From a virus: DNA of 64,000 nucleotides. The notes beneath the pieces are model-generated. The model saw only the letters and a list, made by a program, of their open reading frames with translations. It had not been told where the DNA came from and did no database searches. A program made the position numbers and the translations under genes. The stretch covers positions 14,891 through 78,890 of the IMG/VR virus record IMGVR_UViG_3300030108_005139; one strand, written 5' to 3'. Of the stretch, positions 1,236-6,910 are shown one piece after another; within the stretch, counting starts at the first letter, position 1, and each line of letters starts with the position of its first letter.

Positions 1236-1772
1236 TCAATCCTTCTTTTTAGATTTTTTGCCCCACTTCTTACCTTTCCCTTTCGTTCCACAGGCTGCTG
1301 GGGTTGGCCGACAAGCTGGATATTTTGAACGCTTTTCACCTTTTGATCTACCACAGGCTTTGCACTTCTTTCTTCCAGTCTTTGGATCCTTTCGGCAGGT
1401 ATTGCAATCTACCCAACCTTTACTTCCGCCTCCCCCAGCGCGGCTAAACCACCCGTGGAGCCCAGACTTTTTCTCTTTTGAGTAGTCAGTCCGTGCTTTC
1501 TTTTTTTTTTCGTCTAGACAAGCTTCAATTTCTTCATCGATAATACGATACAAGTCTTCCTTGACACCTTTCCAGATCTCTCCTCTGCGACATCTTACAA
1601 CAGCGCCAGAGGCATATGCAGAAGGCCACACATCGTATTTGCGCTTGGCAATGCGTGTACAGCGATCATCTTTTTTCTTTTTAGCCTTCTTCTTCTTTTT
1701 CTTCTTTTTTTTCTTCTTCTCATCTAAGAAGGCTTCAATTTCTTCATCAATAATTTTTTCAATATTATCCAT
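1236..1772 (-). CDS. Basic Lys/Cys-rich phage protein with two modules (WPSAYASG and GLxxWF..WVD..CGR..YPxCRP), probable internal virion protein
   Basis: Poly-Lys tracts, repeated IIDEEIEAxLDEKKKK, and modules I recognise from large-phage hypothetical proteins. Confidence 0.6.
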   Translation of the reverse strand: MDNIEKIIDEEIEAFLDEKKKKKKKKKKKAKKKKDDRCTRIAKRKYDVWPSAYASGAVVRCRRGEIWKGVKEDLYRIIDEEIEACLDEKKKKARTDYSKEKKSGLHGWFSRAGGGGSKGWVDCNTCRKDPKTGRKKCKACGRSKGEKRSKYPACRPTPAACGTKGKGKKWGKKSKKKD

Positions 1773-1774
1773 AA

Positions 1775-2182
1775 TTATTTATTCCCTGGAACATAATGAA
1801 TTCCAAAAGCGTTGCTCAATGCTCTTGACAGCCCTTCAGGATTGTCGTGATTTTCTTTGACGAGTTCCTTTATTCTTCTTTCTTTATTTAGTTTGTTACT
1901 CACCAAATCATCTTCCAATTGTTCATCAAGTTGTTCCATAACTTCCTGATGAACACGAATAATCTCATCTCTTTGGGCAATCTCGTTAGCGTGTGATTCA
2001 TTAAGGGTTTCTATTTGCTCTTCATAAGATTTATTTCTTGTCCTCAACAAGTCTCTAGCCACATCAGATCTCCTACTAAAAAGGGCCGCCAAAGCAAGAA
2101 CAGCGATCAGGGGAACATACCAGTGGTTTTTAATCCACACCCAAGATCGCTGCAAGAAATGCTTGACTGCCAGCCAAGTCAT
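1775..2182 (-). CDS. Membrane-anchored coiled-coil protein (i-spanin/Rz-like)
   Basis: Likely start MTWLAVK at 2182 (ATGA overlap with the upstream stop). N-terminal TM segment WYVPLIAVLALAALF followed by coiled coil. Confidence 0.45.
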   Translation of the reverse strand: MTWLAVKHFLQRSWVWIKNHWYVPLIAVLALAALFSRRSDVARDLLRTRNKSYEEQIETLNESHANEIAQRDEIIRVHQEVMEQLDEQLEDDLVSNKLNKERRIKELVKENHDNPEGLSRALSNAFGIHYVPGNK

Positions 2183-2370
2183 TTGCCGTGTTTCCAAGTC
2201 GCGGCTAAGTCCGCAAATCCTTGAATACCTACATATCCAATCGTAATTGCTGTCCATTGCTCATTATTAATAAAGCCCAAACATAAAAATGTTGAGGCAG
2301 TGATCCAAGATAAAAGTTTACGACTGATTATTTTATTGAGCCCTTTATCTAGTGCTTGTTTCATACTCAT
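2179..2370 (-). CDS. Small two-TM membrane protein (holin-like)
   Basis: Start MSMKQ at 2370 with an AGGAGG SD. 63 aa; SRKLL followed by two hydrophobic segments and a basic C-terminus. Confidence 0.5.
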   Translation of the reverse strand: MSMKQALDKGLNKIISRKLLSWITASTFLCLGFINNEQWTAITIGYVGIQGFADLAATWKHGK

Positions 2371-2386
2371 AAACCCTCCTTGGTAA

Positions 2387-2464
2387 TTACGAGCAACAGC
2401 ATCCGTCACAGGCACAGTCACAATCGCACCTACACTGCCTACATCCATTTACAATCTTATTCAT
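2387..2464 (-). CDS. 25-aa cysteine-rich microprotein MNKIVNGCRQCRCDCDCACDGCCCS (metallothionein-like)
   Basis: AAGGAGG SD 9 nt upstream of ATG 2464; TAA at 2387-2389; fills the intergenic gap; 9 Cys in 25 aa. Confidence 0.7.
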   Translation of the reverse strand: MNKIVNGCRQCRCDCDCACDGCCCS

Positions 2465-2726
2465 TTGACAAATCCTCCTTTTCTTCCTCCAGAGCAAACC
2501 CATAAATATGCTTCATTATAATCTTGCTCATAGGTTCTTTTAACATTATTGCATTCGCGGCTTGTTGAGCCAGCCCTCGATCTACCTTTGTAACATCCTC
2601 AATAACGTCAGCAATTTTGCCTGCAATCTGATCCCTGTAATCAGTTGGATCAGAGGCATACTCGTGTTTTTCCTCTTCAAGAGTCTCTAAAATAACTTGT
2701 TTTAATTGGGATTTAGTGAACTTCAT
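2457..2726 (-). CDS. Small hypothetical protein with MKxTxSQLKxxIxE leader
   Basis: AAGGAG SD, upstream ACTATTTATTG motif, leader shared with 6940-7218. Confidence 0.75.
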   Translation of the reverse strand: MKFTKSQLKQVILETLEEEKHEYASDPTDYRDQIAGKIADVIEDVTKVDRGLAQQAANAIMLKEPMSKIIMKHIYGFALEEEKEDLSNE

Positions 2727-5956: not shown

Positions 5957-5985
5957 ATTATACAATAGTGTTTTAGGTTAGTCAA
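5957..5985 (-). promoter_or_regulatory. sigma70-type promoter TTGACT-N17-TATAAT for the Mre11-Rad50 gene
   Basis: Near-consensus -35 and -10 boxes with 17-nt spacing, about 30 nt upstream of ATG 5925. Confidence 0.75.
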
Positions 5986-6910
5986 GTGGATTTGTATTTT
6001 TTTTCAGATATTCGCGATCCGCCCACACACTACCAAGGTACCTCTCGCCTCGATCACAAAGCATAGTAACAACAGTTCCCGTAATGTTATTTTCTTCTAT
6101 CCACTTTTCTGCTGCCAATATATTGGCTCCGGCTGATATTCCTACTAGTAAGCCGTTTTCAACTGCTAGTCTTCTTGCTCGCTCTTTAGCATCCTCAGTC
6201 TTTATTCTAATAATTTCGTCAAACAGAGAAGTATCAGCTAAAAAATCTTCTCCGTCGCTAATGCCTTGAATTCCGTGCTGATCGCTTGGCTCGTCAGGCT
6301 TGACCATTATAATTTTTGTGTTTAAGCTCGGGGTTTTTTGTATGAAGCTATGAACACCCATTATTGTTCCACCTGTGCCTACACCCGACACAAATCCAGC
6401 CCACGCAGTATTACCTGGAATTTGCTCGTATATCTCAGGGGCTGTTTTGTGCATATGGCACTTTATATTGTCGCTATTTTCAAATTGACACGGAGACCAG
6501 CTGTCATCGATACAGGCTAAGATTTCGTTTCTTTTCTGTATCGCAGCATCGAAATCACTAGCAGCAACCTCCAATATGTCGGCTCCAAATGCACGCATCA
6601 TCTGCTTTCTCTCTTCTGACATATTTGAAGGCATTACTATCTGGACTGGGTTTCCCATTGCAGCACCAAGTGCCGAGAGTGAGATGCCGGTATTGCCGCT
6701 TGTTGCTTCAACTAAAAGAGTAGTTGACTTTATTTCTGAGTTTTTTATCGCTCCTTCAACAACATACGATATCATTCTGTCTTTAACAGACCCTGTAGGG
6801 TTTGCTGTTTCAAGTTTTCCATACAGATTTTTTGAGATCTTAACTAAAGGTGTATTGCCTACAGCTTTTAAGAAATTTAATGCTGGGCTTTCTTTAAAAC
6901 CTGCAGGCAT
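5978..6910 (-). CDS. cysK: PLP-dependent cysteine synthase (CysK/CysM family)
   Basis: GNTPLV, NPTGSVKDR (PLP lysine), EATSGNTG, GVGTGGT, IQGI, GISAGA, DRGERY; GGAGG SD. Confidence 0.9.
   Translation of the reverse strand: MPAGFKESPALNFLKAVGNTPLVKISKNLYGKLETANPTGSVKDRMISYVVEGAIKNSEIKSTTLLVEATSGNTGISLSALGAAMGNPVQIVMPSNMSEERKQMMRAFGADILEVAASDFDAAIQKRNEILACIDDSWSPCQFENSDNIKCHMHKTAPEIYEQIPGNTAWAGFVSGVGTGGTIMGVHSFIQKTPSLNTKIIMVKPDEPSDQHGIQGISDGEDFLADTSLFDEIIRIKTEDAKERARRLAVENGLLVGISAGANILAAEKWIEENNITGTVVTMLCDRGERYLGSVWADREYLKKNTNPLD

What the first reader, a model, noticed from the sequence alone, without database searches (positions are those of the whole stretch)
2387..2464. Hidden 25-aa, 9-cysteine microprotein (metallothionein-like)
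Seen: AAGGAGG-N9-ATG then MNKIVNGCRQCRCDCDCACDGCCCS-stop. It occupies the gap that the ORF track misassigns as an N-terminal extension of the holin-like gene. The CxxCxCxCxCxCxxCCC spacing with no aromatic residues is typical of metal-thiolate cluster peptides. Inference: a phage-encoded metal chelator or redox buffer, or a modified-peptide precursor; standard gene callers would miss it.
Basis: partly seen in the sequence, partly recalled or inferred. Interest (0 to 1): 0.75.

Follow-up and report, generated by a model that had tools for sequence, protein, structure and literature searches.

The report
Cysteine-cluster microprotein beside phage membrane protein
The 25-codon, nine-cysteine reading frame is a real gene of an uncultured marine T4-like phage, and it encodes a metallothionein-like peptide that related phages either fuse to, or couple with, the small two-helix membrane protein encoded next to it.

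Summary
On the minus strand (2464..2387), AAGGAGG-N9-ATG precedes a 25-aa ORF with 9 Cys spaced Cx2CxCxCxCxCx2CCC.

It is a real coding frame.
- Strains whose neighbouring membrane protein is 92-100% identical carry diverged alleles that keep this Cys spacing (all nine in P0141, eight in the others).
- Almost nothing between the cysteines is conserved (0/9 against P0141), and Cys codons swap TGT/TGC.
- These alleles occur as a separate ORF (L293) or fused in frame to the membrane protein (P0090, P0098, P0141, P0146).
- A more distant subfamily of the same membrane protein carries other Cys/His-rich N-terminal modules. These are either fused or encoded as 25-29-aa micro-ORFs joined by TAATG, with 8 invariant Cys.

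Public gene calls misread the region as an N-terminal extension of the membrane protein (89 aa).

Composition and the conservation pattern fit, but metal binding is untested and no Pfam metallothionein model matches. The RiPP reading is not supported.

The new point is that the peptide is a detachable cytoplasmic module of a conserved, holin-like, uncharacterised two-TM protein.

The scan has noted cysteine-packed microproteins in other large marine phages before. I found no paper describing a phage metallothionein.

The parts
2474..2480 (-). Shine-Dalgarno AAGGAGG of the micro-ORF, lying inside the 3' end of the upstream gene
   Evidence: It sits nine bases before the ATG at 2464. The equivalent GGAGGA-N8-ATG is present in the syntenic contig L293.
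2387..2464 (-). Micro-ORF of 25 aa with 9 Cys (Cx2CxCxCxCxCx2CCC), stop TAA at 2389..2387
   Evidence: Searches show the sequence. Homologous alleles with the same Cys spacing are P0141, P0090, P0098 and P0146 (fused) and L293:834-905 (split).
2457..2726 (-). Upstream 89-aa gene with an MKFTKSQLKQVILETLEE leader. Its last 8 nt overlap the start of the micro-ORF.
   Evidence: The same arrangement occurs in L293 (95-aa gene 554-841). It has no Pfam or PHROG family.
2375..2381 (-). Second Shine-Dalgarno AAGGAGG, serving the membrane-protein gene
   Evidence: It lies 4 nt before ATG 2370 and 10 nt before ATG 2364. It is retained as ..GGAGGG.. in L293 and, read as the residues Q-G-G, in the fused alleles.
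2179..2370 (-). Partner gene: a 63-aa two-TM hairpin protein (alternative start 2364) of a large uncharacterised phage family
   Evidence: Orthologues start at this position (L149, L002, L293). Hydropathy shows two hydrophobic segments with K/R at both ends. AlphaFold2 gives a helical hairpin. The family has 752 clusters at 50% identity. It has no Pfam or PHROG family.
2371..2448 (-). Frame-B 'N-terminal extension' of the membrane protein as called by gene finders; judged not coding
   Evidence: There is no SD before ATG 2448. This frame shows 17 distinct substitutions in 26 aa, against 7 in the 61-aa core, across 19 variants. The frame is closed by a stop in L293.
1775..2182 (-). Downstream TM plus coiled-coil gene (Rz-like). 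The probable true start is ATG 2182, overlapping the stop of the membrane-protein gene (ATGA).
   Evidence: Weak PHROG matches to Rz-like spanins in three orthologues. Orthologue starts support the shorter start. Identity to L293 is 73%.

Best explanation
The ORF is a translated gene for a 25-residue cysteine-cluster peptide, metallothionein-like in composition, with the spacing Cx2CxCxCxCxCx2CCC. It acts as a detachable cytoplasmic N-terminal module of the next gene's product, a conserved 61-63-aa two-helix membrane protein that is holin-like and is followed by an Rz-like gene.

Shown:
- The frame is coding and under selection for its cysteines.
- The same or analogous Cys/His-rich modules sit at the N-terminus of this membrane protein in related phages. 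They are either fused in frame or encoded as a separate micro-ORF directly upstream.
- Split and fused states interconvert among near-identical strains.

Inferred:
- The membrane protein lies N-in/C-in, so the module faces the reducing cytoplasm.
- There its thiolates, together with His in some relatives, bind soft metal ions (Zn, Cu or Cd) in a small cluster.
- This metal- or redox-dependent head tunes oligomerisation or triggering of the membrane protein.
- Where module and membrane protein are fused and the internal SD is kept, long and short isoforms could form a dual-start pair like holin and antiholin.
For: (1) Gene signals. AAGGAGG-N9-ATG precedes the ORF, its start overlaps the upstream gene by 8 nt, and its stop lies just before the next gene's own SD. 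The syntenic contig L293 has the same layout.

(2) Alleles in close strains.
- P0141 has 9/9 Cys aligned to the window peptide and 0/9 of the other residues identical.
- P0090, P0098 and P0146 have the same spacing minus the last Cys.
- Against L293, the membrane-protein gene is 92% identical (dS 0.39, dN 0.04). The micro-ORF has pS 0.98 and pN 0.27, yet 8/8 aligned Cys are kept, 5 of them with TGT/TGC swaps.

(3) Population variants of the window's own allele. 19 distinct variants were found.
- Frame B changes about 5 times faster per site than the membrane-protein core.
- 8 of the 15 inferred base changes are silent in the Cys frame.
- The second position of Cys codons changed at 0/9 sites, against 5/11 for other codons (one-sided p about 0.03).

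(4) Link to the membrane protein.
- Of 171 distinct loci, 7 carry fused Cys-rich N-termini and 9 carry split micro-ORFs at the same position.
- Among 84 proteins of the SRKLLVF subfamily there are several Cys/His-rich N-terminal types.
- In the split family of 8 loci, all 8 Cys, one Thr and two Gly are invariant, every Cys column shows TGT/TGC variation, dN/dS is 0.01-0.3, the junction is always TGY-TGY-TAATG, and the partner protein begins M-x-C-H-D-H-D.

(5) Topology. There are two hydrophobic segments with basic residues at both ends. AlphaFold2 gives helices 31-60 and 65-89 and a disordered module at residues 1-30.

(6) Lysis context. The next gene gives weak Rz-like spanin matches in three orthologues. 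No T4-type holin (PF11031) was found in 5 related genomes that are 87-100% complete.
Against: - Metal binding is not measured, and no Pfam metallothionein family matches.
- The membrane protein matches no holin family, and the spanin matches are weak (E about 1e-3).
- The window's membrane protein has no His/Cys-rich N-terminus of its own, so a physical interaction in trans is conjecture.
- The closest IMG/VR relative (L149, 87% identity in the membrane protein) and the other 79 nearest loci lack any Cys ORF. The module is therefore dispensable.
- Similarity between the window peptide and the modules of the distant subfamily barely exceeds composition (p about 0.05). Those modules may be analogues rather than homologues.
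- Cys-rich frames can arise as by-products of other coding frames (L153; the antisense strand of SbcCD).
- No RNA contig covered the ORF itself.
Confidence: 0.55

Rival explanations
1. Cysteine-sensing translational gate. What matters is translating a run of Cys codons, not the peptide. When Cys-tRNA is scarce, ribosomes stall in the micro-ORF (or in the fused N-terminus). This blocks or delays synthesis of the membrane protein, so its expression is tied to the cell's cysteine supply.
For: - The ORF sits directly upstream of the membrane-protein gene, and a ribosome stalled on the terminal CCC would cover that gene's SD.
- The split family is joined by TAATG termination-reinitiation.
- Between the W and V alleles only the Cys positions are conserved.
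- Polycysteine uORF attenuators exist in mycobacteria (10.1101/834739).
- This phage, unlike 67 relatives, carries a CysK-like gene 3.5 kb upstream.
Against: - The exact Cys spacing is conserved, not just the Cys count.
- One Thr and two Gly are invariant in the split family.
- His-rich partner segments have no role in a Cys-tRNA sensor.
- The downstream gene is not a cysteine or sulphur gene.
- The window's membrane-protein gene has its own strong SD.
Confidence: 0.12
2. Free-standing phage metallothionein or redox buffer. A soluble chelator acts on host metal or thiol pools, with no functional tie to the neighbouring membrane protein. The fusions seen elsewhere are accidents of a crowded cassette slot.
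For: - Composition and spacing are metallothionein-like.
- The window's copy has its own SD and stop, and its neighbour lacks metal-ligand residues at its N-terminus.
- The slot upstream of the membrane-protein gene also receives unrelated cassettes, some likewise fused in frame (P0100, P0085).
Against: - Stable fused forms persist across a diverged subfamily: type 1 comprises 14 proteins at 68-100% identity.
- Cys modules were found at this one position in 16 of 171 loci and not elsewhere in about 1.6 Mb of related DNA, apart from by-product frames.
- The split family always co-occurs with a His-rich N-terminus on its partner.
Confidence: 0.12
3. Not a gene. The Cys-rich frame is a by-product of another reading (the 89-aa frame-B form of the membrane protein) or of a non-coding spacer.
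For: - Public gene callers report the 89-aa form.
- Frame B is Val/Ala/Thr-rich and looks coding.
- V/A-rich genes do throw up Cys-rich alternative frames (L153).
Against: - Frame B has no SD.
- Frame B varies radically among strains while the core is constant.
- Frame B is closed by a stop in L293.
- Frame B shows no similarity to the L149 micro-ORF: 62% of shuffles score as well.
- A (Cys-Asp)n frame automatically yields a V/A-I/T frame one base on.
- The Cys frame is the one kept in the fused alleles.
Confidence: 0.05
4. Precursor of a modified peptide (a RiPP, for example SCIFF/ranthipeptide-like or thioether-bridged).
For: It is short and Cys-rich, with a 7-residue N-terminal stretch that contains no Cys.
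Against: - No radical SAM domain is present in the 78.9-kb record.
- The neighbours are a nuclease, leader-tagged small proteins and membrane proteins.
- The module is fused to a membrane protein in relatives.
Confidence: 0.03

Closest known systems
Small single-domain metallothioneins (about 25-residue, 7-Cys fungal Cu-thioneins such as that of Neurospora crassa; bacterial SmtA/BmtA, Pfam PF02069; mycobacterial MymT). Recalled from general knowledge.
   Same: - Very small size.
- About one-third Cys, arranged as CxC, CxxC and CC motifs.
- No aromatic residues.
- Between alleles, essentially only the cysteines and their spacing are conserved.
- AlphaFold2 predicts the metal-free module to be disordered.
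   Different: - No sequence match to any Pfam metallothionein model.
- Encoded by a phage.
- Genetically tied, by fusion or coupling, to a two-TM membrane protein.
- Metal binding is untested.
Holin/antiholin dual-start pairs (lambda S105/S107, phage 21 S68/S71), in which an N-terminal extension of a small membrane protein sets lysis timing. Recalled from general knowledge.
   Same: - The partner is a small helical-hairpin membrane protein next to an Rz-like gene.
- Variation is concentrated at its cytoplasmic N-terminus.
- In fused alleles the internal SD and ATG are retained, so long and short products are possible.
   Different: - The extension is a 20-60-residue Cys/His-rich module, not one or two charged residues.
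- The partner matches no holin family.
- No lysis function has been shown.
Polycysteine-encoding short ORFs that act as cysteine-responsive attenuators in mycobacteria (bioRxiv 10.1101/834739)
   Same: A short upstream ORF packed with Cys codons, in which only the Cys positions are conserved, placed directly before the regulated gene.
   Different: - Those uORFs are leaderless and control cysteine or sulphur genes.
- Here the ORF has a strong SD.
- The downstream gene encodes a membrane protein.
- The exact Cys spacing is conserved.
- The module is fused in frame to the downstream protein in relatives.
Zinc-binding anti-sigma factors (ZAS family, for example RsrA and ChrR). Recalled from general knowledge.
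   Same: The idea of a cytoplasmic thiolate-metal head, at the N-terminus of some membrane-anchored regulators, that responds to redox state.
   Different: - ZAS domains are about 90-residue helical folds with an HxxxCxxC motif.
- There is no sequence or architectural match here.

Membership tests
Metallothionein (operational definition) | Low molecular mass | tested here: met
   25 residues.
Metallothionein (operational definition) | High Cys content (about 30%) arranged as CxC, CxxC and CC, with no aromatic residues | tested here: met
   9 of 25 residues are Cys (36%). The spacing is Cx2CxCxCxCxCx2CCC. There is no F, W, Y or H.
Metallothionein (operational definition) | Cysteines and their spacing conserved while the other residues drift | tested here: met
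   9/9 Cys and 0/9 other residues are shared with P0141. 8/8 aligned Cys are shared with L293, 5 of them with TGT/TGC swaps.
Metallothionein (operational definition) | Binds several metal ions in thiolate clusters | not testable with these tools
   This needs the peptide, ESI-MS and UV/CD titration.
Described metallothionein sequence families (Pfam) | Match to a Pfam metallothionein model | tested here: not met
   No Pfam family at E <= 10 for the window peptide, two split-family peptides or five fused proteins.
Holin (for the partner membrane protein) | Small membrane protein with one or more TM segments and a charged C-terminus | tested here: met
   Two hydrophobic segments, a C-terminal WKHGK, and SRK before TM1. 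AlphaFold2 gives a hairpin.
Holin (for the partner membrane protein) | Membership of a described holin family, or placement in a lysis cassette | tested here: inconclusive
   No Pfam or PHROG holin match. The next gene gives only weak Rz-like matches (E 3e-4 to 6e-3). No endolysin gene lies next to it (neighbours). PF11031 is absent from 5 related genomes, but the control search was silent.
Holin (for the partner membrane protein) | Forms lethal membrane lesions at a programmed time | not testable with these tools
   This needs expression assays.
Polycysteine uORF attenuator | Regulates a downstream cysteine or sulphur-metabolism gene | tested here: not met
   The downstream gene is a two-TM protein. 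CysK lies upstream, beyond SbcCD.
Polycysteine uORF attenuator | Only the Cys codons matter; the peptide is dispensable | tested here: inconclusive
   Between the W and V alleles only Cys is conserved, which fits. However, the exact spacing is kept, Thr and Gly are invariant in the split family, and in-frame fusions exist.
RiPP precursor (radical-SAM-modified Cys peptides) | Adjacent or co-occurring maturase gene | tested here: not met
   PF04055 is absent from the 78.9-kb record, which is estimated to be only about 33% of the genome. The neighbouring genes are not enzymes of that kind.

The most novel reading that the evidence does not exclude
The Cys (and His) module is a metal- or thiol-redox-sensing trigger on a phage lysis-timing membrane protein. 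In split form it is a separate cytoplasmic antiholin-like partner. In fused form it is the long isoform of a dual-start pair. Either way, the moment of host lysis would depend on the infected cell's metal load or redox state. That would be a new class of holin regulation, and it would be widespread in abundant ocean phages.
Probability: 0.2. Interest if true: 0.85.

Novelty: new variant of a known kind. Interest (0 to 1): 0.68.

Why it matters
The protein family involved is large: 752 clusters at 50% identity. It belongs to an abundant and uncultured group of marine T4-like phages. This stretch occurs in metagenomes from 9 studies dated 2014-2025, and a syntenic relative (L293) lies on a contig with an AACY accession. 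None of the family has been characterised.

The work shows three things.
- A tiny gene that is invisible to gene callers, or is miscalled as an extension of its neighbour, is real.
- That gene is under selection for a cysteine cluster.
- It is modular with a membrane protein, which gives a concrete and testable handle on the function of both.

If the module binds metal, it would be the first phage metallothionein-like element with a defined partner, as far as the searchable literature shows.

The case also carries an annotation lesson. The 89-aa protein present in public databases is very probably an artefact of reading the wrong frame.

Tried and rejected
- Cultured phages: blastn and tblastn of the region, the peptide and the membrane protein against the phage collection found nothing. 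SbcCD matched only distantly.
- The upstream 89-aa protein has no relatives in IMG/VR.
- Pfam and PHROG searches on the peptide and the membrane protein found nothing. The ESM Atlas returned only unnamed phage clusters, with DUF2644 at 0.81 as a weak lead.
- The degenerate DNA pattern for the Cys core, scanned over IMG/VR, hit only unrelated loci.
- L153 looked like a Cys ORF but is an alternative frame inside a real 76-aa membrane-protein gene.
- I considered that frame B of the window is homologous to the L149 hydrophobic micro-ORF. This is rejected, because 62% of shuffles score as well.
- Programmed frameshifting to fuse the two ORFs was considered and rejected. There is no slippery site, and the junctions are ordinary stop-start overlaps.
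- Expression: RNA-library contigs (run X17) cover 2072-2242 and 2485-2747 but not the ORF, so nothing can be said about its transcription.
- A Fisher test of synonymous against non-synonymous changes in Cys and other codons was not significant (p = 0.57). Counts are small, and only changes that alter frame B are visible.
- One homologous-protein run, one listing of cluster members and one script call failed and were repeated.
- Literature searches for a phage or viral metallothionein, or for Cys-rich holin extensions, found nothing relevant.

Full report
WHAT IS THERE

The window is part of a 78.9-kb IMG/VR virus record estimated to be about 33% complete. All genes lie on the minus strand. It carries baseplate wedge genes, sugar-modifying genes, a primase, a RuvC-like resolvase and a fused SbcD-SbcC nuclease. 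This is an uncultured marine T4-like myophage.

The finding is on the minus strand. AAGGAGG lies at 2480..2474, nine bases follow, and the ATG is at 2464. The ORF has 25 codons and stops with TAA at 2389..2387. The peptide has 9 Cys, no aromatic residue and no His, and the spacing is Cx2CxCxCxCxCx2CCC.

The ATG lies 5 nt before the stop of the upstream 89-aa gene. Sixteen bases after the micro-ORF's stop comes the ATG (2370) of a 63-aa membrane protein. Those sixteen bases contain a second AAGGAGG. The membrane-protein gene is followed, with an ATGA overlap, by a TM plus coiled-coil gene.

Nothing else in the window approaches this Cys density. The maximum per 18 aa is 9 here, 6 once the ORF is masked, and 4-6 in shuffles. 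There is no tandem repeat.

IS THE CYS FRAME THE CODING ONE?

This needed care, for three reasons.
- A (Cys-Asp)n frame automatically gives a Val/Ala-Ile/Thr frame one base further on. That frame (frame B; ATG 2448) is open into the membrane-protein gene.
- Public gene callers report frame B as an 89-aa protein (P0094 and P0147).
- Hydrophobic genes can in turn throw up Cys-rich alternative frames. Examples are L153 and the antisense strand of SbcCD, which reaches 9 Cys per 20 aa.

Four lines of evidence decide for the Cys frame.

(a) Fused alleles in near-identical strains. In strains whose membrane protein is 97-100% identical, gene callers report 92-93-aa proteins that begin with a Cys module in frame: P0090, P0098, P0141 and P0146. 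P0141 has exactly the window's spacing. All 9 Cys align and none of the 9 intervening residues is identical. The other three have the same spacing without the last Cys.

(b) The syntenic contig L293 (AACY020140336.1).
- It has the same gene order as the window.
- Its 23-codon Cys ORF is preceded by GGAGGA-N8-ATG, and the start has the same 8-nt overlap with the upstream gene.
- Its own stop is followed by GAGGAGGG and the membrane-protein ATG.
- In L293, frame B is closed by a stop, so the "extension" reading is impossible there.
- Against the window, the membrane-protein gene is 92% identical (dS 0.39, dN 0.04). The micro-ORF is saturated at silent sites (pS 0.98) with pN 0.27, yet all 8 aligned Cys are kept, 5 of them with TGT/TGC swaps.

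(c) Population variants of the window's own allele. Nineteen distinct 89-aa variants were found.
- The 26-aa frame-B extension carries 17 distinct, often radical substitutions. The 61-aa core carries 7 conservative ones.
- Mapped on the DNA, 8 of the 15 inferred base changes are silent in the Cys frame.
- The second base of Cys codons never changes (0/9 sites, against 5/11 for other codons).
- Third-base changes in Cys codons are only T<->C.
- This test sees only two of the three codon positions. One rare variant, on a single 571-bp contig, implies Cys22Ser.

(d) Start signals. Frame B's ATG has no SD. The membrane-protein gene's own SD and ATG coincide with the start used by orthologues (L149, L002, L293).

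I put the probability that the micro-ORF is a genuine gene at about 0.9.

WHAT IT BELONGS WITH

Using SbcCD and the membrane protein as anchors, I collected 171 distinct loci from IMG/VR.
- In most of them the membrane-protein gene directly follows SbcCD.
- In others it follows a small inserted cassette. These include leader-tagged small proteins, 76-83-aa hydrophobic proteins and a 34-aa hydrophobic micro-ORF.
- Sixteen loci have a Cys-rich module exactly at the N-terminus of the membrane protein. Seven are fused and nine are split, counting the window.

In the protein database, the SRKLLVF subfamily shows a hypervariable N-terminal extension that falls into several Cys/His-rich types, carrying 7-13 Cys and some with 3-4 His in addition.

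One His-rich type (M-x-C-H-D-H-D...) is always preceded by an uncalled 25-29-aa micro-ORF ending ...CC-stop, with its stop overlapping the partner's ATG (TAATG). Across 8 loci of this split family:
- all 8 Cys, one Thr and two Gly are invariant;
- every Cys column shows TGT/TGC variation;
- dS is saturated and dN/dS is 0.01-0.3 where it can be computed.

Cys modules are therefore a recurrent accessory of this one protein. They can be covalently attached or co-translated from the adjacent ORF. Among the window's close strains both states occur for the same allele type.

The module is dispensable. The 80 loci whose membrane proteins are closest to the window's in IMG/VR, including L149 at 87% identity, have none. 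Among representatives at 50% identity it is rare.

Similarity between the window peptide and the distant modules barely exceeds composition (p about 0.05). I therefore call those modules positional and compositional analogues, possibly homologues. The W and V alleles, by contrast, are clearly homologous.

THE PARTNER

The membrane protein has two hydrophobic segments around a short acidic loop, and K/R at both ends (SRK......WKHGK). By the positive-inside rule this implies N-in/C-in.

AlphaFold2, run on the fused allele with a 35-sequence alignment, gives helices 31-60 and 65-89 at pLDDT about 70. The module, residues 1-30, is below 50, as expected for a metal-free thiolate peptide.

The family is large, with 752 clusters at 50% identity at E <= 1e-3. 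It has no Pfam or PHROG family and no name.

The next gene gives repeated but weak matches to Rz-like spanin PHROGs in three orthologues. No T4-type holin domain is found in five related genomes that are 87-100% complete, although that search had no positive control.

"Holin-like" is thus a reasonable but unproven label.

MECHANISM

Shown: a selected Cys cluster peptide that is genetically coupled to the cytoplasmic N-terminus of a conserved hairpin membrane protein.

Inferred:
- It binds soft metals through thiolates. The grounds are the composition, the Cys-only conservation and the His-rich partner segments.
- It modulates the membrane protein, perhaps as a metal- or redox-dependent head.
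- In fused alleles that keep the internal SD, it may act as the long member of a dual-start pair.

Rivals:
- A Cys-tRNA-sensing translational gate, modelled on mycobacterial polycysteine uORFs (10.1101/834739). This is the most serious rival, because it also predicts Cys-only conservation and tolerates both fusion and splitting. Against it stand the exact spacing, the invariant Thr and Gly, the His-rich partners, and a downstream gene unrelated to sulphur metabolism.
- A free-standing chelator. This is disfavoured by the positional specificity and by the stable fusions.
- A RiPP precursor. No maturase was found.
- An artefact. See the section on the coding frame above.

COMPARISON AND NOVELTY

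By the operational definition, the peptide meets every sequence-level criterion of a metallothionein. It matches no described metallothionein family, and metal binding is untested.

I found no paper on a phage metallothionein or on Cys-rich extensions of holin-like proteins.

This scan has noted cysteine-packed microproteins in other large marine phages before (e1-5814804, e1-5814809, e1-5411270, e1-2356908). I did not test whether those are the same families. What is added here is the fused/split link to a defined membrane-protein partner and the allelic series within one phage population.

The stretch occurs in marine metagenomes from 9 studies dated 2014-2025.

LIMITS

- There is no expression evidence over the ORF itself.
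- Function is inferred throughout.

Noticed in passing
window 5978-6910 (minus strand): A CysK-like PLP enzyme (PALP, E 7e-55) lies directly upstream of SbcCD. None of the 67 related loci has it within 6 kb of SbcCD. The one phage here with a cysteine synthase-like gene also makes a peptide that is 36% Cys. This may be coincidence, or it may relate to cysteine supply.
   Followed up: partly
window 2457-2726; L293:247-841; L055:9161-9579; L068:288-630: The small genes just upstream of the Cys module all begin with the same MK(L/F/I)TK..L..II.EEL leader. Earlier notes of this scan read that leader as a capsid-targeting signal. The slot between SbcCD and the membrane-protein gene is a hot spot for such cassettes.
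   Followed up: partly
L149:90-194; P0100; L153:1758-1988; L161, L164, L167-L179: Other relatives place hydrophobic micro- or miniproteins in the same slot. One is a 34-aa single-TM ORF, which is fused in frame to the membrane protein in P0100. Another is a 76-83-aa multi-TM family. Some strains have a basic peptide (RFSNEEKERLRKK) instead (P0085, P0097).
   Followed up: partly
L229, L232, L235, L238, L240, L241, L247, L252, L254 (about 319 aa) and L256 (452 aa): Unrelated IMG/VR contigs encode proteins of about 319 aa that end in ...NCNCNCACDCCC. L256 carries the same NCNCNCACDCCC motif inside a longer, 452-aa reading frame. This cysteine string sits on a much larger phage protein.
   Followed up: no
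L031, L034, L036, L037 (minus strand, inside SbcCD): The antisense frame of a conserved SbcCD segment reads up to 9 Cys in 20 aa. This shows that Cys-rich frames can be by-products of other coding constraints.
   Followed up: yes
window 1775-2257: The listed 160-aa ORF probably starts at ATG 2182, which overlaps the membrane-protein gene's stop as ATGA and gives 135 aa. This matches orthologues that begin MTWLA... . The first 25 codons overlap the membrane-protein gene.
   Followed up: partly
window 1236-1772: A 178-aa protein has a run of 11 Lys, a duplicated IIDEEIEA.LDEKKKK segment and a Cys-rich basic C-terminus. L293 has a homologue at the same place.
   Followed up: no
window 2363-2515 in metagenome runs X7, X9, X10: Contig depth falls several-fold just upstream of the membrane-protein gene, and loose ends start at 2379 and 2400. 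Co-occurring strains share the membrane-protein gene but carry different cassettes there, one of which is the V-type Cys allele.
   Followed up: yes
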